A DNA stretch of 64,000 bases, taken from IMG/VR virus record IMGVR_UViG_2880412407_000011, one strand, 5' to 3'. This document shows positions 32,875 to 42,624 of this stretch, piece after piece (the first letter of the stretch is position 1; every line of letters starts with the position of its first letter). Source of the stretch: a virus. Taxonomy: Duplodnaviria > Heunggongvirae > Uroviricota > Caudoviricetes. A program made the position numbers and the translations under genes. The notes below the pieces were generated by a model. That model was not told the origin of the DNA, searched no databases, and worked only from the letters and a program-made list of their open reading frames with translations.

Positions 32875-33117
32875 ATGAAAAAATCAGAAGTATTAGGCTA
32901 TTTTGGCGGAGTTGTTAAAACAGCCGCCGCTCTAGGAACGTCAAAAACCACAGTCAGCATGTGGGGGGAAGACGTTCCGTGGAAATGGGCGTTGCTAATT
33001 CAGGCAGTCACTGCCGGGGCGCTCAAATATGAGTTACACATACCGACGGTTGTCATTCCCGATTCTGATCATAATCCGCCTTCTAACCAAGGGGGGATTC
33101 ATGAAAATCAAGCATGA
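32875..33117 (+). CDS. Cro-like HTH regulator
   Basis: 80 aa from MKKSEVLGYFGG...; small HTH protein divergent from the repressor. Confidence 0.6.
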   Translation: MKKSEVLGYFGGVVKTAAALGTSKTTVSMWGEDVPWKWALLIQAVTAGALKYELHIPTVVIPDSDHNPPSNQGGIHENQA

Positions 33118-33526
33118 ACACATCCGCATGGCGATGAATGCCTGGGCGCGTCCTGATGGCGAAAAAGTTCCGGCAGCTGGAATAACCCAGGCTTATTTTG
33201 AGTTGGGTATGACGTTTCCTGAACTGTACGACGACAGCCATCCGGAAGCCCTGGCTCGCAATACCCAGAAAATTTTCCGCTGGATAGAGAAAGACACCCC
33301 TGATGCAGTTGAAAAAATGCAGGCTCTGTTACCGGCGATCGAAAAGGCAATGCCGCCTCTGCTGGTGGCCCGTATGCGCAGTCACAGCTCTGAATATTAC
33401 CGTGAGATCGTCGAACGGAGGGATCGGCTGGTGAAAGATGTGGATGATTTTGTCGCAGCGGCGATCGCCTGGGGCACCCTGACTAACAGTGGGGGGCAGC
33501 CTGGTAATGCTGTTGTCGTGCATTGA
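33101..33526 (+). CDS. YdaT/CII-like regulatory protein
   Basis: 141 aa from MKIKHEHIRMAM...; position right after cro. Confidence 0.45.
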   Translation: MKIKHEHIRMAMNAWARPDGEKVPAAGITQAYFELGMTFPELYDDSHPEALARNTQKIFRWIEKDTPDAVEKMQALLPAIEKAMPPLLVARMRSHSSEYYREIVERRDRLVKDVDDFVAAAIAWGTLTNSGGQPGNAVVVH

Positions 33527-33594
33527 CCAACAATATTCATGCCGGATTTCTTCCGGATGTTCGAGGGTAAAGTTCGGTATCAGAAGAGGTGAGT

Positions 33595-34662
33595 ATGGCT
33601 AATGCCTGGCTCAGATTGTGGCATGACATGCCAAATGACCCCAAGTGGCGAACGATTGCCAGGGTATCAGGACAGCCAATCGCAACAGTGATGGCAGTGT
33701 ATATCCATCTTCTGGTGAGTGCGTCACGAAATGTCACGACATGTCACGGCGTGTCACTACGTGGTCACATTGATGTCACGACGGAAGATTTAGCAAGTGC
33801 GCTTGATGTGACGGAAGACGTAATTGATTCAATTTTGCATGCAATGCAGGGGCGGGTTCTGGATGGTGACCTTATTTCCGGATGGGAAAAACGTCAGGTG
33901 CTGAAAGAGGACAATGGTAACGTTTCGCAAACGGCAAAATCCCCGGCAGAGCGCAAGAGAGCGCAGCGGGAGCGGGAAAAGCTGCGGAAACATAATGCTG
34001 ATTGTCACGATGAGTCACGACGTGTCACGCATCTGTCACGACAAGTCACGACAGATAAAGATACAGATAAAGATACAGATAAAGATACAGATAAAGATAC
34101 AGATACAGAATTAAACCCCACACATAACGCGCGCGAGAGTATTCCGACCAGTGAGTCGAATGGTGCGCCGTTGCAGACAGCCGAACCTGAATACCTGGAC
34201 GGCCTGAGCGAACCGATCGGGAAATTTCCGATGACTACTGTCTGGCAGCCGTCGCCGGATTTTCGACAACGGGCAGCAGTGTGGGGTATGGCTCTGCCTG
34301 AGCCGGAATTTACACCTGCTGAGCTTGCCGCATTCCGGGATTACTGGATGGCGGAGGGGAAGGTTTTCACGCAGGTTCAGTGGGAGCAGAAATTTGCCCG
34401 CCACGTGCAGCACGTCAGGGCACAGGTAAAACCAGTCAGCAAGGGGGGAAGCCATGCAGCATCAGGTGGCACGGCATCACGGGCAGTTCAGGAAATCCGG
34501 GCTGCACGCGAACAGTGGGAACGTGACAACGGATTTATCAGCAACGGAAACGGCCTGGAAGCTGTGGGAGCTCATGGGGGAGGTGTATTCGAACCGCTGG
34601 ACTCAGAAGAACGGGGCCGCACCTTCGAAGCTCTGGATTGCCCAGATTGGTGCGATGACTGA
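33595..34662 (+). CDS. replication initiator (lambda O-like role) containing internal iterons
   Basis: 355 aa; SD agaggtgag; contains two arrays of GTCACG repeats and a (ACAGATAAAGAT)n tract; followed by a P-like gene. Confidence 0.6.
   Translation: MANAWLRLWHDMPNDPKWRTIARVSGQPIATVMAVYIHLLVSASRNVTTCHGVSLRGHIDVTTEDLASALDVTEDVIDSILHAMQGRVLDGDLISGWEKRQVLKEDNGNVSQTAKSPAERKRAQREREKLRKHNADCHDESRRVTHLSRQVTTDKDTDKDTDKDTDKDTDTELNPTHNARESIPTSESNGAPLQTAEPEYLDGLSEPIGKFPMTTVWQPSPDFRQRAAVWGMALPEPEFTPAELAAFRDYWMAEGKVFTQVQWEQKFARHVQHVRAQVKPVSKGGSHAASGGTASRAVQEIRAAREQWERDNGFISNGNGLEAVGAHGGGVFEPLDSEERGRTFEALDCPDWCDD
33720..33780. repeat. iteron array 1 (six GTCAC(G) repeats at ~10-bp spacing)
   Basis: gtcacgaaatgtcacgacatgtcacggcgtgtcactacgtggtcacattgatgtcacgacgg. 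Confidence 0.55.
34003..34107. repeat. iteron array 2 (five GTCACG repeats) followed by 12-bp tandem repeat (ACAGATAAAGAT)x4
   Basis: ttgtcacgatgagtcacgacgtgtcacgcatctgtcacgacaagtcacgacag then acagataaagat x4; encodes (TDKD)n in the initiator. Confidence 0.55.
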
Positions 34663-35116
34663 ACAGCAAATCCGTCTGGTGTGCCGTCAGTGCATGGACC
34701 GCTGCCGGGCGGGTGAAACGTGGCCCCCGGACCTGGCTGAGTTTGTTGCGCTGATTTCGGAGAGTGGGGCAAATCCATTTGGTCTTACGGTGGATGCCGT
34801 GATGGAAGAGTACCGGCGCTGGCGCAATGAATCCTGGCGATACGACGGGAGTGATAAATACCCGTGGCCACAGCCTGTGCTGTACCACATCTGCCTCGAA
34901 ATGCGTACCAGAGGGATTGAGCGCCAGATGACGCAAGGTGAGTTAAAACGACTTGCGGAACGGCAACTGACGAAATGGGCAAAGCATGTTGGTAACGGGA
35001 TGAGTGTTCCGCCAGTGCGACGACAACTGGAAGGGGCGAAACACCCGCAAGGGCCAACGCCAATTGAACGGCTGAAACAGGAATACGAACGCCGGAAGGC
35101 AGCTGGTTTTATTTGA
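34454..35116 (+). CDS. replication protein, lambda P-like (helicase loader)
   Basis: 220 aa; C-terminal pattern VDAVMEEY..W....YPW......Y.......R......T..EL.R.A..QL resembles lambda P; strong SD; overlaps initiator 3' end by 209 bp. Confidence 0.5.
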   Translation: MQHQVARHHGQFRKSGLHANSGNVTTDLSATETAWKLWELMGEVYSNRWTQKNGAAPSKLWIAQIGAMTEQQIRLVCRQCMDRCRAGETWPPDLAEFVALISESGANPFGLTVDAVMEEYRRWRNESWRYDGSDKYPWPQPVLYHICLEMRTRGIERQMTQGELKRLAERQLTKWAKHVGNGMSVPPVRRQLEGAKHPQGPTPIERLKQEYERRKAAGFI

Positions 35117-35149
35117 ATCTGAGAAACGATTTTGTCGGAGGAAATATTA

Positions 35150-35866
35150 ATGGAAACCGTATTTGACGCACTGAAAGCACTGAAAAAAGCCTCTTCACAG
35201 GTAGTGGCATCGCGCCTTGGAATCAGCCGCGAAGATGCTGTCAACGAACTGTGGAAACTGAAGCGCCGTGGTGAAGCGGATAACAAGGGGTCGATGTGGT
35301 GGCTGACTCAGACTGGTGAAAGTGAACCAGTGTCACCGGTACCGAAAGTGACAGCGCAAATGCTGACTGAGGCGATTGAACATCATGGCCCACAAACGGC
35401 GGATGAGCTGGCACTGATGTTCGGGATTACCTCCCGCCGGGCGAATTCATCACTGGCCATGGCAATCAGCAAAGGGCGTCTGATTCGCGTGAATCAGGGC
35501 GGTAAATTTCGGTACTGCATACCGGGCGCTGATTTACCGGCAGAGCCGAAAGCCGCATCCATAACGGAAACGGATGGTAAAGCCTTTCCTCAGCCAGCAG
35601 GTGTTGCGTTACCAGTCGGGGAAGCGGAAACACAGGAAGAAATAAAAACGGAAAGTGTGGCGGTCACAGTGCAGTCACAGCCGTCGTTCACCAGAAAGCA
35701 TCCGGATGGTCTGATTTTACCATCGCTGCATGTGGCTAACCGCGAGCTGCGCCGGGCAAAAGGTCAGGTTCAGAAGTGGGAGCGAGTCTGCGCCGCGCTG
35801 CGGGAGCTGAACAAGTGCCGGGATATTCTCCGGGATATTACCGCCACCAGAGAACAGCAGCGGTGA
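35150..35866 (+). CDS. hypothetical protein (winged-helix-like N-terminus)
   Basis: ORF with GGAGG SD; common lambdoid nin-region type protein. Confidence 0.45.
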
Positions 35867-35898
35867 GTGGGTGGAAGACGTGGTGCCGGGCGGAAATC

Positions 35899-36180
35899 AT
35901 GATACTCCGGCAGTGTGCGGGAACGATGAAGGTAAAAAGCGTTGGCGCACTTATCGGACGAACTGAAGCGGCAGTGAGAACGAAGGCACGGGAGCTGGGC
36001 ATCAGCATGATGTTACGTGGTGATTTTCACCCGTCGGCAAAATATTCTCAGCGTGATATTGAGCTGGCGCGGCAACTGCATCAGAGAGGCATGCAAAGAA
36101 GGGAAATTGCCAGAAAATTAGGCATGCCGCTGCGCATAGTGAATAACTACGTTTATTTCGACAGGAGGGTGTCTGCGTGA
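35899..36180 (+). CDS. hypothetical HTH protein
   Basis: 93-aa ORF MILRQCAGTMKV...; helix-turn-helix-like RREIARKLGMPLRIVNNYV. Confidence 0.4.
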   Translation: MILRQCAGTMKVKSVGALIGRTEAAVRTKARELGISMMLRGDFHPSAKYSQRDIELARQLHQRGMQRREIARKLGMPLRIVNNYVYFDRRVSA

Positions 36181-36404
36181 AAATCCTGTATCAGGATTAC
36201 GGCCCGGTGGGGCAGGTGGTTATCAGCAGTACTGTAATGGAGTTTCGGAAGCATAACCGTGTGGTGGATGCTGTGCTGTTAACCTGTCCGGGGATATCGG
36301 CGAGTCGTGCAGGTGTGTTTATTATGAAGACGAAATTATATGGCAGTAAGGCGTGGATAAAGAAGGCGTATCGTGTAGCGTTGCAGGAGGTTAACAGTGA
36401 GTGA
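36177..36404 (+). CDS. hypothetical protein
   Basis: 75-aa ORF, start overlaps upstream stop. Confidence 0.35.
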   Translation: MKILYQDYGPVGQVVISSTVMEFRKHNRVVDAVLLTCPGISASRAGVFIMKTKLYGSKAWIKKAYRVALQEVNSE

Positions 36405-36708
36405 AATTAAAGAAATGCCGGTAGTTCGTGACGGATATGGCTACTGGACACATCCTGAATATGAAAAATTCTGTGATGGTCGGGAATATATTTCAACGGA
36501 AGAGTTTAACGCCTGGATGGAGGAAAATAATCTTCAATACGTCCTCTGCTTCAGAGATGAAGGATGTGCTGACCTTGATGCGTGTGATGCTGATATTTCT
36601 GCATGGGAACCGGAACGACCAGAGGGCGATGGCTGGTTTATTGGTTCCATTCATGATACGGAAGATGGCCCGGTTTGTGTCTGGTTGCGAAATAAGGCTG
36701 AAGCATAA
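36397..36708 (+). CDS. hypothetical protein
   Basis: 103-aa ORF, overlapping start. Confidence 0.4.
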   Translation: MSEIKEMPVVRDGYGYWTHPEYEKFCDGREYISTEEFNAWMEENNLQYVLCFRDEGCADLDACDADISAWEPERPEGDGWFIGSIHDTEDGPVCVWLRNKAEA

Positions 36709-36835
36709 AGGCGATAAACCAACTAACAACTAAATACTGAAGATTTAAATCAGAAACGATTTTTATTAAATCCTTAACCGGAGGGATTCCTGCACCCTCA
36801 GAACATCAGGAGGCCGCCCGAAAGGGCGGTAAGAA

Positions 36836-37054
36836 ATGAAACATTATTTAGAAAAAAATTACCCACGAAAGAGCAGAACAACAGAGTTTCTGTTTTTCAT
36901 TCTGTTTATAGTGTTGATGATACCGATATCCCCGCTATTACTGGTCTGGATAATTGGAAGGACATTTGAACCAGTTATTGAGCTATATACCGATGTGACA
37001 TGGGAATCATTCAGCGCACTGCACAATAAAATTAATCCGTATAAGGAAAACTGA
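36836..37054 (+). CDS. hypothetical small membrane protein
   Basis: 72 aa with one hydrophobic helix (FLFFILFIVLMIPISPLLLVWIIG). Confidence 0.35.
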   Translation: MKHYLEKNYPRKSRTTEFLFFILFIVLMIPISPLLLVWIIGRTFEPVIELYTDVTWESFSALHNKINPYKEN

Positions 37055-37613: not shown

Positions 37614-37903
37614 CCTGGCCTGAAGCATTCACAACGGTAGGAATTGCGATGGCGGTGGCGCTGGTGGTGTATTCGATTTGCCGCTGGGGATAAAAACGGT
37701 TTGCGGGAAAAGGATAGTTAAGTAGAATTGCTGCGGGTGCTTGAGGCTATCTGCCTCGGGCATGAACACCAACGGCAGATAGAGAAAAGCCCCAGTTAAC
37801 ATTACGCGTCCTGCAAGACGCTTAACATTAATCTGAGGCTCAATCCATGCTGAACACATGTAGGTTAGCCTCTTACGTGCCGAAAGGCAAGGAGAAGCAG
37901 GCT

Positions 37904-38059
37904 ATGAAGCAGCAAAAGGCGATGTTAATCGCCCTGATCGTCATCTGTTTAACCGTCATAGTGACGGCACTGGTAACGAGGAAAGACCTCTGCGAGGTGC
38001 GAATCCGAACCGGTCAGACGGAGGTCGCTGTCTTCGTAGACTACGAATCTGAGAAGTAA
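37904..38059 (+). CDS. hokD: Hok/Gef-family type I toxin (HokD/RelF-like)
   Basis: 51 aa MKQQKAMLIALIVICLTVIVTALVTRKDLCEVRIRTGQTEVAVF... matches E. coli RelF/HokD by recollection. Confidence 0.8.
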   Translation: MKQQKAMLIALIVICLTVIVTALVTRKDLCEVRIRTGQTEVAVFVDYESEK

Positions 38060-42202: not shown

Positions 42203-42278
42203 GGCCCTTTAGCTCAGTGGTGAGAGCGAGCGACTCATAATCGCCAGGTCGCTGGTTCAAATCCAGCAAGGGCCACCA
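42203..42278 (+). tRNA. tRNA-Ile (anticodon CAU, ileX/ileZ-like) - could alternatively be scored as tRNA-Met
   Basis: 76 nt cloverleaf, acceptor GGCCCTT/AAGGGCC, anticodon loop CTCATAA, 3' CCA; closely resembles E. coli ileX. Confidence 0.8.
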
Positions 42279-42368
42279 TCACAAACCGCCATTAGCTTAT
42301 CAGGAAGAGCAGACGACACCATAACAGGGTTGTTGGTGCGGGGCCGGGTCCCCGATGGCGGTCCATTA

Positions 42369-42445
42369 TCGGTATTCTGCGTTGTTAGCTCAGCCGGACA
42401 GAGCAATTGCCTTCTAAGCAATCGGTCAGTGGTTCGACTCCACTA
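42369..42445 (+). tRNA. tRNA-Arg (anticodon UCU)
   Basis: 77 nt, acceptor GCGTTGT/ACAACGC, anticodon loop CTTCTAA, 3' CCA. Confidence 0.8.
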
Positions 42446-42624
42446 CAACGCGCCACACTTATTTTCCAGGCTCGCTTCGGCGGGCCTTTTTTGTATCTGC
42501 GCCACGCCCGGCGCATATCAACCACAGAGCCTTTCGGGGGTGAGCTTACGGAGTGGTCAGTGTGACTTTCTCTGTGGGCAGATCGCTCCCGGGCGTTGGC
42601 TCACCCACCCAAAGGAACGTCACG

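What the first reader, a model, noticed from the sequence alone, without database searches (positions are those of the whole stretch)
33595..34662. Ori-like iteron arrays embedded in the replication initiator gene
Two clusters of GTCACG repeats at about 10-bp phasing (33720-33780 and 34003-34050) bracket roughly 230 bp and are followed by a perfect 12-bp tandem repeat (ACAGATAAAGAT x4, 34052-34107) that encodes a (TDKD)n linker. This parallels lambda, where ori iterons lie inside gene O and encode the interdomain linker. The repeat sequence itself differs from the lambda iterons.
Basis: partly seen in the sequence, partly recalled or inferred. Interest (0 to 1): 0.5.

Follow-up and report, generated by a model that had tools for sequence, protein, structure and literature searches.

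The report
Prophage replication origin inside initiator gene
The repeats are real and almost certainly form the replication origin of an E. coli prophage, built like phage lambda's origin (initiator-binding repeats plus an easily melted A/T-rich tract inside the initiator's own gene) but with an unrelated initiator domain and a different repeat; it is a good annotation result, not a new principle.

Summary
GTCACG occurs 9 times on one strand in 328 bp at 10-11 bp phasing, in two arrays (33723-33780 and 34004-34050). Array II is followed directly by (ACAGATAAAGAT)x4.9 at 34051-34109. This tract is the least stable duplex in the replication region.

The gene (33595-34662) encodes a two-domain initiator. 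The N-terminal part is a DnaD-NTD-like winged helix, followed by a disordered linker and a DnaT-type ssDNA-binding domain. A lambda-P-like loader gene comes next.

Comparative data give three results:
- About 85 homologous genes from many Proteobacteria carry phased repeats at the same two positions.
- The repeat core differs between clades (GTCACG, CGAACG, GTAACG, GCAACG and others), but matches between the two arrays of a gene in 57 of 67 loci.
- Synonymous sites inside the motifs are frozen (0.10 vs 1.40 bit). The following (GATAAA)n tract stays A/T-rich even in loci of about 60-69% GC (Asp GAT:GAC 78:2 vs 206:230 elsewhere).

The repeats are therefore selected as DNA and travel with the N-domain, while the C-domain is exchanged at the A/T tract.

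Best reading (0.8): a lambda-like origin, with iterons and an unwinding element inside the initiator gene. Binding and replication are untested. It is a new member of a known kind.

The parts
33595..34662 (+). Replication initiator gene (O analogue, 355 aa). It consists of an N-terminal origin-binding-type domain, a disordered linker and a DnaT-like C-domain.
   Evidence: The ORF is. PHROG hits are 'replication initiation protein' families. Pfam DnaT PF17948 matches aa 211-277 at E=1.6e-17. The RefSeq annotation is, and the AF2 domain layout.
33595..33909 (+). Coding region of the N-terminal winged-helix domain (about aa 1-105), the presumed iteron-binding domain.
33723..33780 (+). Iteron array I: six direct copies at 10-11 bp phasing. 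GTCACG is at 33723, 33733, 33743 and 33775; GTCACT is at 33753; GTCACA is at 33764. The array is read in all three frames (SR/VT/CH/SL/GH/VT).
   Evidence: The array lies at the same gene position (nt 129-165) in homologues. Third-codon positions in the motif have 0.10 bit entropy against 1.40 elsewhere. The window carries a 21-bp, two-iteron insertion relative to most relatives.
33807..33812 (-). Inverted near-copy of the iteron (GTCACA on the minus strand), about 33 bp after array I.
   Evidence: It is present at the same offset (nt 192-197) in Tritos, 204576, pAEv1818, phi1 and many genome loci. Synonymous-site entropy is lower than background (0.5-0.85 bit).
34004..34050 (+). Iteron array II: five perfect GTCACG copies spaced 10, 10, 11 and 10 bp, lying in the linker-coding region.
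   Evidence: This array is present in most of the homologous loci analysed, including several that lack array I. It falls in the segment the AF2 model leaves disordered (aa 143-194).
34051..34117 (+). A/T-rich, purine-strand-biased tract (ACAGATAAAGAT)x4.9 followed by ACAGAATTAAA. It is the presumed DNA-unwinding element, and also a VNTR and the junction between modules.
   Evidence: The tandem repeat is. GC is 0.30, a local minimum. It holds the least stable 40-mer of 32800-37000, in the top 0.15% of the window. A (GATAAA)n tract abuts the last iteron in 25 diverse loci. Codon bias keeps it A/T-rich. Copy number varies from 2 to 9 hexamers among near-identical prophages. The mosaic breakpoint lies at 34075-34115.
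34204..34431 (+). DnaT-type ssDNA-binding domain (about aa 204-279) of the initiator.
   Evidence: NCBIfam DnaT matches aa 204-279. Foldseek matches 4ou6 (DnaT84-153 with dT10) at TM 0.89 and 57% identity. A profile search matches DnaT chains in the PDB.
34655..35116 (+). Lambda-P-like helicase-loader gene, overlapping the initiator's stop codon.
   Evidence: Pfam Phage_lambda_P matches at E=3e-15 and PHROG 'P-like helicase loader' at 1e-53. RefSeq calls it 'replication protein P'. Its reading frame is open from 34454.

Best explanation
This is the replication origin of a lambdoid E. coli prophage, placed inside the gene of its own initiator.

The proposed mechanism has four steps. All of them are inferred; the last paragraph lists what is actually shown.
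1. The initiator's N-terminal DnaD-NTD-like winged-helix domain binds the 6-bp core GTCACG. The core is repeated once per helical turn in two arrays: six copies plus one inverted copy at 33723-33812, and five copies at 34004-34050.
2. The protein oligomerises on the arrays, possibly bridging the two arrays, which lie about 280 bp apart.
3. This destabilises the abutting A/T-rich (ACAGATAAAGAT)n tract at 34051-34117, which melts.
4. The C-terminal DnaT-type domain holds single-stranded DNA and/or docks the P-like loader encoded next (34655-35116), which delivers host DnaB.

Shown here: the repeats exist; they are conserved in position across the family; they are under selection as DNA; they change in concert with the N-domain clade; the tract is selected to be A/T-rich and is the weakest duplex locally; and the domain folds are as described. 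Not shown: protein-DNA binding, looping, melting, helicase recruitment and actual origin firing.
For: (1) Clustering is far beyond chance.

(2) The 10-11 bp period places the motif in all three reading frames, so it is not a peptide repeat.

(3) Phages Tritos, 204576, pAEv1818 (Aeromonas) and phi1 (Pseudomonas), at 65-86% aa identity, have GTCACG arrays at the same two gene positions. The same holds for prophages of roughly 30 of the sampled species, out of 80 loci examined.

(4) In 22 homologues, third-codon positions inside the motif have 0.10 bit of entropy against 1.40 bit outside (permutation p<1e-5).

(5) More distant relatives carry other cores (CGAACG, GTAACG, GCAACG, GGAACG, GTGACG). 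The motif derived independently from array I equals that from array II in 57 of 67 loci.

(6) The repeats stay with the N-domain, while the C-domain and the downstream partner differ: P-like here, DnaC-like in pAEv1818, DnaB in Firinga, others in Tritos and phi1.

(7) A (GATAAA)n tract follows the last iteron in 25 loci from hosts with locus GC of 34-69%. In the 21 of them scored for codon use, GAT:GAC is 78:2 against 206:230 elsewhere, and AAA:AAG is 72:12 against 142:153 (Fisher p = 2e-20 and 2e-10).

(8) In the window, this tract is the least stable 40-mer of the replication region.

(9) The folds fit the proposed roles: a DnaD-NTD / plasmid-RepA-NTD-like winged helix, a DnaT ssDNA-binding domain, and a P-like loader.

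(10) There is precedent for origins inside initiator genes: lambda O (PMC5509034, PMC6022878) and SPP1 gp38 with oriL (PMC6316719).
Against: - No experiment shows that this protein binds GTCACG, or that the region fires as an origin. The prophage may be defective.
- The iteron core is unusually short (6 bp with 4-5 bp spacers) compared with classical iterons of 17-22 bp.
- No sequence-family model links the N-domain to a proven origin binder.
- The downstream GC-rich inverted repeat seen in many relatives, and in lambda, is absent from the window.
- The long 12-bp array is a recent expansion: most close relatives have only 3 hexamers.
- Conservation of array I is confounded with conservation of the peptide it encodes, although the synonymous-site result argues against that.
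Confidence: 0.8

Rival explanations
1. The arrays are initiator-binding sites, but they serve autoregulation or copy control (a roadblock to transcription of the initiator's own gene, titration, or handcuffing) rather than origin firing. The real origin would lie elsewhere.
For: Two separated arrays, one inside the domain-coding region, recall the control iterons of plasmids. Array I is dispensable in some relatives (L085, L147, L151, L153, L162, L164).
Against: No other phased array exists in the 64-kb window. Array II is always abutted by a tract selected to be A/T-rich, which is the signature of an unwinding element. The two roles are not exclusive: array I could be a control site while array II is the origin.
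Confidence: 0.09
2. The repeats bind some other protein (a partition or centromere protein, a regulator such as the Cro- or CII-like neighbours, or a host factor) and merely sit in this gene.
For: Phased repeats of 10-11 bp in two blocks resemble the plasmid R1 parC centromere, which has two sets of five iterons (PMC2241845). No binding data exist for any candidate protein.
Against: The repeats follow the N-domain through changes of every neighbouring gene: Rha, CII-like or hypothetical genes upstream, and P, DnaC or DnaB downstream. Their core changes with the N-domain clade. No partition genes were seen next to them.
Confidence: 0.05
3. There is no DNA-level function. The repeats are slippage-prone low-complexity sequence in a tolerant loop and linker, and/or conserved linker sequences that serve only as recombination joints between modules.
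For: The 12-bp repeat is a VNTR of 2-9 hexamers among near-identical prophages. Iteron number also varies: a 21-bp insertion in the window, and a 10-bp insertion causing a frameshift in L022 and L040. The mosaic junction lies in the tract.
Against: Slippage does not explain any of the following:
- synonymous sites frozen across Escherichia, Pseudomonas, Bordetella and Aeromonas;
- the same core in two arrays read in different frames;
- A/T codon choice against the host's bias.
The joint role is better seen as a consequence of a conserved origin sequence, as with lambda hybrids.
Confidence: 0.04

Closest known systems
Phage lambda ori-lambda within gene O, with the O-P initiator and loader pair
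   Same: - The origin lies inside the initiator gene.
- Repeats are followed directly by an A/T-rich, strand-asymmetric tract.
- The repeats and tract fall (array II) in the interdomain linker.
- The N-domain determines origin specificity, and the C-domain pairs with a P-type loader encoded next.
- Module exchange happens at the origin.
Sources; PMC5509034 and PMC6022878 for lambda; the remaining lambda details are from my own knowledge.
   Different: - The N-domain is not homologous to lambda O: no Phage_rep_O hit, and the fold is DnaD-NTD-like.
- The repeats have a 6-bp core at 10-11 bp phasing, in two arrays of 5-6 direct copies. Lambda has four contiguous iterons of about 19 bp with dyad symmetry.
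- One array lies inside the DNA-binding-domain coding region.
- The C-domain is DnaT-like.
- The window has no downstream palindrome.
Bacillus phage SPP1 gp38 (replisome organizer) and oriL inside gene 38
   Same: An origin-binding protein binds direct repeats located within its own gene, next to an A/T-rich unwinding element. A separate loader then brings the helicase (PMC6316719). PHROG 'replisome organizer' families hit residues 4-173 weakly (E = 3e-8 to 3e-5).
   Different: SPP1 infects a Gram-positive host and encodes its own helicase. It has a second copy of the repeats (oriR) 13 kb away; no second array was found here. Sequence similarity is only marginal.
RepA_N plasmid initiators (pSK41 and pTZ2162 RepA, PDB 4PTA) and the DnaD N-terminal domain
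   Different: There is no Pfam RepA_N hit. [quoted passage not shown] Those replicons are mostly plasmids of Firmicutes.
Rac-type YdaU and DopC/DopE: O-like proteins with a DnaT C-domain plus a P-like partner
   Same: They have the same C-terminal half and the same P-like partner: 87% nt identity to Rac-SA53 ydaU/ydaV from 34079 onward. The pairing of a DnaT_C domain with P is described for DopC/DopE (PMC5509034). Rac is known to carry an active origin, oriJ (PMC3945230).
   Different: Their N-domains differ (DUF1376 or HTH_36), and other repeats lie upstream of the shared junction. The domesticated DopC has no iterons (PMC5509034).

Membership tests
Lambda O / ori-lambda family | Initiator N-domain homologous to lambda O (Pfam Phage_rep_O) | tested here: not met
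   Pfam finds only DnaT PF17948 in the protein. The N-terminal 122 aa give no hit even at E<=10.
Lambda O / ori-lambda family | Four contiguous iterons of about 19 bp with internal dyad symmetry | tested here: not met
   The repeats are 6-bp cores at 10-11 bp spacing, direct, in two arrays.
Lambda O / ori-lambda family | A/T-rich tract immediately after the iterons, inside the gene | tested here: met
   The tract at 34051-34117 has GC 0.30 and is the weakest duplex locally. It is conserved and kept A/T-rich by codon choice.
Lambda O / ori-lambda family | P-type helicase loader encoded directly downstream | tested here: met
   Pfam Phage_lambda_P matches at E=3e-15 and PHROG P-like loader at 1e-53. 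The RefSeq name is 'replication protein P'.
Iteron-type replication origin (general) | Three or more phased direct repeats specific to the replicon, next to an unwinding element and to the gene of the cognate initiator | tested here: met
   There are 6+5 copies, with the tract adjacent, inside the initiator gene. The repeat core covaries with the initiator clade.
Iteron-type replication origin (general) | Initiator binds the repeats, and the region supports replication | not testable with these tools
   This needs EMSA or footprinting and a replication assay.
Phage replisome organizer / DnaD-like N-domain (Pfam Phage_rep_org_N, DnaD NTD, RepA_N) | Sequence-profile membership | tested here: not met
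   No Pfam or NCBIfam hit to the N-domain. There are only weak hits to PHROG 'replisome organizer' and 'DnaD-like' families (E = 2e-9 to 3e-5). NCBI does name the cluster members 'phage replisome organizer'.
Phage replisome organizer / DnaD-like N-domain (Pfam Phage_rep_org_N, DnaD NTD, RepA_N) | DnaD-NTD-type winged-helix fold | tested here: inconclusive
DnaT (primosomal protein I) | C-terminal three-helix ssDNA-binding domain | tested here: met
   PF17948 matches at E=1.6e-17. Foldseek matches 4ou6 at TM 0.89 and 57% identity. The profile hits DnaT chains.
DnaT (primosomal protein I) | Full-length equivalog of host DnaT | tested here: not met
   NCBIfam PRK02854 scores 93.7 bits against a cut-off of 201, and only positions 82-156 of the model are matched.

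The most novel reading that the evidence does not exclude
A large initiator family of proteobacterial prophages, not covered by Pfam or NCBIfam models (about 1,700 clusters at 90% identity), may use a readable 'xxxACG' iteron code, with at least seven specificity classes.

Part of its origin (array I) is written inside the coding sequence of the very domain that reads it. A change of origin specificity would therefore have to be made at the same time in the protein, in its own codons in three reading frames, and in a second array 270 bp away.

If true, origin specificity and incompatibility of co-resident prophages could be predicted from sequence. The family would also be a natural system for studying the co-evolution of a DNA-binding domain with a site that encodes it.
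Probability: 0.45. Interest if true: 0.55.

Novelty: new member of a known kind. Interest (0 to 1): 0.4.

Why it matters
This initiator type matches in 1,227 of 5,426 complete E. coli genomes. In 638 of them the match covers at least 80% of the gene, and these include O157:H7 and other STEC. Even so, neither the phage nor the RefSeq records inspected annotate an origin, and no paper in the searchable library describes the repeats.

Defining the origin has three uses:
- It gives annotators a rule: phased xxxACG arrays at about nt 130 and about nt 400 of the gene, followed by (GATAAA)n.
- It explains why the gene is a hotspot for module exchange and for broken assemblies.
- It offers a testable handle on the replication, and hence the induction-dependent gene dosage, of STEC prophages.

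Conceptually it adds one more independent case of an origin inside an initiator gene, rather than a new principle.

Tried and rejected
- **DnaA boxes.** There are none in or next to the arrays. The nearest one-mismatch site, at 33439, is unremarkable.
- **Internal promoters or terminators.** Counts are not above the shuffled expectation.
- **Lambda-like palindrome after the A/T tract.** It is present in many relatives, but the window's best stem is 4 bp (p=0.83), so it is not part of this locus.
- **A second origin copy elsewhere, like SPP1 oriR.** None was found.
- **Peptide-repeat explanation.** Rejected on frame usage and synonymous-site conservation.
- **Membership in the lambda O, RepA_N or Phage_rep_org_N Pfam families.** No hits.
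- **Literature searches.** Searches for ydaU/iterons, GTCACG iterons, oriJ, and ydaU/ydaV replication found no description of these repeats. The oriJ plasmid paper (Potrykus et al. 2000) and the RepA_N review are not held, so those comparisons rest on memory.

Full report
**1. What is in the sequence**

The ORF 33595-34662 (+) encodes a 355-aa protein. Perfect GTCACG occurs on the + strand at 33723, 33733, 33743 and 33775, and at 34004, 34014, 34024, 34035 and 34045. Degenerate in-phase copies at 33753 (GTCACT) and 33764 (GTCACA) bring array I to six copies. An inverted near-copy lies at 33807-33812.

The hexamer is not enriched in the window overall (37 against 32 expected). Nine same-strand copies in 328 bp compare with about 0.07 expected, and no other phased array of three or more copies exists in the 64 kb.

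Directly after the last copy, Tandem Repeats Finder reports 34051-34109, period 12, 4.9 copies, 97% matches. That stretch is the local GC minimum (0.30). By nearest-neighbour energies it is the least stable 40-mer of 32800-37000, and it falls in the top 0.15% of the whole window.

The 10-11 bp period puts the core in all three reading frames, giving the peptides SR, VT, CH, SL, GH and VT in array I, and CH, SR, VT, SR and VT in array II. The repeat is therefore a DNA repeat, not a peptide repeat.

**2. The gene and its surroundings**

The window is an E. coli STEC prophage. It is 100% identical to strain 2014C-4423. The gene matches in 1,227 of 5,426 complete E. coli genomes, and in 638 of them over at least 80% of its length, O157:H7 included.

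Upstream lie a LexA/S24-type repressor, a P22-Cro-like gene and a CII/YdaT-like gene. Downstream lie a lambda-P-like gene (34655-35116) and a DUF1627 gene.

Pfam sees only a DnaT domain (aa 211-277, E=1.6e-17) in the initiator. No Pfam or NCBIfam model matches the N-terminal 122 residues.

The AlphaFold2 models give this layout:
- a confident N-domain (about aa 11-100), with a low-confidence hairpin or loop at aa 41-60, which is exactly the segment encoded by array I;
- a basic helix at aa 117-141;
- a disordered stretch at aa 143-194, which contains array II and the (TDKD)n repeat;
- a confident DnaT-like domain.

**3. Comparative evidence**

*Phage relatives.* Among phage relatives of the N-terminal half, Tritos, 204576, Aeromonas pAEv1818 and Pseudomonas phi1 (65-86% aa identity) have GTCACG arrays at the same two positions of the gene, and the inverted copy 33 bp after array I. 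Ralstonia phage Firinga (38% identity) has the same architecture but with GCAACG: 4-5 phased copies plus inverted copies at the array I position, four at the array II position, then a purine-rich A-rich tract.

*Genome scan.* A scan of one genome per species with an alignment of the N-domain returned 80 loci, mostly Proteobacteria. Most of them carry a hexamer phased at 10 bp at about nt 129-165 and about nt 340-450 of the gene.

*Iteron classes.* The cores fall into classes that share ACG but differ in the preceding triplet: GTCACG 29, CGAACG 19, GTAACG 7, GCAACG 4, and single cases of GGAACG, GAAACG and GTGACG. When the best phased motif is derived separately for the two regions, it is the same in 57 of 67 loci. 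Most exceptions are weak two-copy calls or orientation flips. Some relatives have array II only (L085, L147, L151, L153, L162, L164). Array II plus the tract is therefore the core element, and array I is an accessory.

*Selection on the DNA.* In 22 GTCACG-class homologues that align without gaps over the first 100 codons, third-codon positions inside the four cores have a mean entropy of 0.10 bit (n=8), against 1.40 bit for the other 86 third positions (permutation p<1e-5).

*The A/T-rich tract.* In 25 diverse loci, the last iteron is abutted by (A/T)AGATAAAGATAAAGA-type sequence, whatever the host GC (34-69% for the loci) and whatever the C-terminal domain type. In the 21 of these loci scored for codon use, Asp is GAT 78:2 GAC against 206:230 in the rest of the same genes, and Lys is AAA 72:12 AAG against 142:153 (Fisher p = 2e-20 and 2e-10). 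The tract is thus kept A/T-rich at the DNA level against codon preference.

**4. Dynamics**

Among near-identical E. coli prophage copies, the hexamer count in the tract ranges from 2 to 9, and proteins from 341 to 355 aa. The window is at the long end. The striking 'perfect x4' array is therefore a slippage expansion of a shorter conserved tract.

Relative to most relatives, the window has a 21-bp insertion in array I. That is two iterons, or 7 residues (TCHGVSL), and it is in frame because 10+11=21. Two viral contigs have a sixth iteron in array II, a 10-bp insertion that frameshifts the gene to 157 aa.

Similarity to Tritos (same N-module, other C-module) ends at 34075-34115. Similarity to Rac-SA53 ydaU (other N-module, same C-module and P-like partner) begins at the same place. 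The module junction is therefore the A/T tract. Rac-SA53 and PPompW initiators share the junction sequence, but have other repeats upstream of it, attached to their different N-domains.

**5. Interpretation**

The simplest account of all this is a lambda-type origin: initiator-binding iterons and an unwinding element inside the initiator gene. The N-domain and its repeats are inherited as one specificity module. The C-domain is matched to the helicase-loading partner, which is P-like here, DnaC-like in pAEv1818 and DnaB next door in Firinga.

What is shown is the anatomy, its conservation, the DNA-level selection, the covariation and the folds. What is inferred is binding, oligomerisation or looping between arrays, melting of the tract, capture of single strands by the DnaT-like domain, and recruitment of P:DnaB. 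I put 0.8 on the origin reading.

The rivals score low for the reasons given in their entries. They are a control-only role for the arrays, another binding protein, and mere slippage or a recombination joint. A control role for array I alongside an origin role for array II remains quite possible.

**6. Comparison with what is known**

Origins inside initiator genes are classical. Examples are lambda O (PMC5509034, PMC6022878), SPP1 gp38 with oriL, which has direct repeats and an A/T-rich unwinding element (PMC6316719), and, from my own knowledge, P22 gene 18 and several RepA_N plasmids. RepA_N N-domains are DnaD-like and bind iterons (PMC7145576). The pairing of an O-like protein carrying a DnaT C-domain with a P-like protein has been described for DopC/DopE, where no iterons remain (PMC5509034). 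Rac prophage is known to have an active origin, oriJ (PMC3945230).

This locus works like lambda but is not a member of the lambda O family. The N-domain is unrelated, and the repeats are short direct cores in two arrays rather than four 19-bp iterons.

I found no description of these repeats in the searchable literature, and no origin annotation in the phage and RefSeq records inspected. That search covers open-access papers only.

Verdict: a real feature, a new member of a known kind, of moderate interest. The unusual points are that one array is embedded in the coding sequence of the presumed reading domain, and that the family-wide 'xxxACG' classes can be read from sequence.

Noticed in passing
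window 34454-34662 (P reading frame overlapping the 3' end of the initiator gene): The P-like reading frame is open from 34454, which is 209 nt before the initiator's stop codon. With this longer ORF the Pfam P-model match starts at model position 31 instead of 55. RefSeq starts P at 34655. PHROG 15931 (482 aa) and proteins P0048 and P0068 are O-P fusions. The true P start may lie upstream, or an O-P fusion may arise by frameshift.
   Followed up: partly
L022 and L040 (IMG/VR contigs), array II: A sixth GTCACG copy (a 10-bp insertion) frameshifts the initiator gene to a 157-aa product. Iteron gain or loss in steps not divisible by 3 inactivates the gene that hosts the origin.
   Followed up: partly
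L091, L100, L103, L105, L109 and others, 25-55 bp after the A/T tract: Many relatives have a GC-rich inverted repeat (up to 11 bp, for example TCTCTCTCTCC/GGAGAGAGAGA) just after the tract. This is reminiscent of the palindrome in ori-lambda. The window itself lacks it.
   Followed up: partly
L169 (Rac-SA53 ydaU) and L170 (PPompW), linker regions: Initiators with other N-domains (DUF1376; HTH type) share the window's C-half and the junction sequence GATACAGAT...AAACCCCACACATA. They carry different repeats upstream, for example CAAAGACACCCAAA x2 and GGAACCCAAAG x2 in PPompW. These are probably their own iterons.
   Followed up: partly
protein hits P0025-P0056 and others: A very large share of database entries for this protein are 'partial'. 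Draft assemblies often break inside this gene, presumably because several prophages per genome share parts of it (up to 6 places per genome).
   Followed up: no
window 30450-30501 (-), 37735-37909 (+), 42203-42455 (+), 43225-43397 (+), 19561-19759, 25551-25667: Other RNA features of the prophage are DicF antisense RNA, a sok antitoxin RNA (a hok/sok-type module), tRNA-Met and tRNA-Arg, sRNA STnc100, and two IS-associated elements (IS009 RNA and the ALIL frameshift pseudoknot).
   Followed up: no
window 32145-32783 (-): The ORF list gives a 212-aa repressor with an HTH and an S24 peptidase domain. RefSeq annotates only a 339-nt 'LexA family protein' in the identical strain. The repressor gene may be truncated or mis-started in the annotation.
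   Followed up: no
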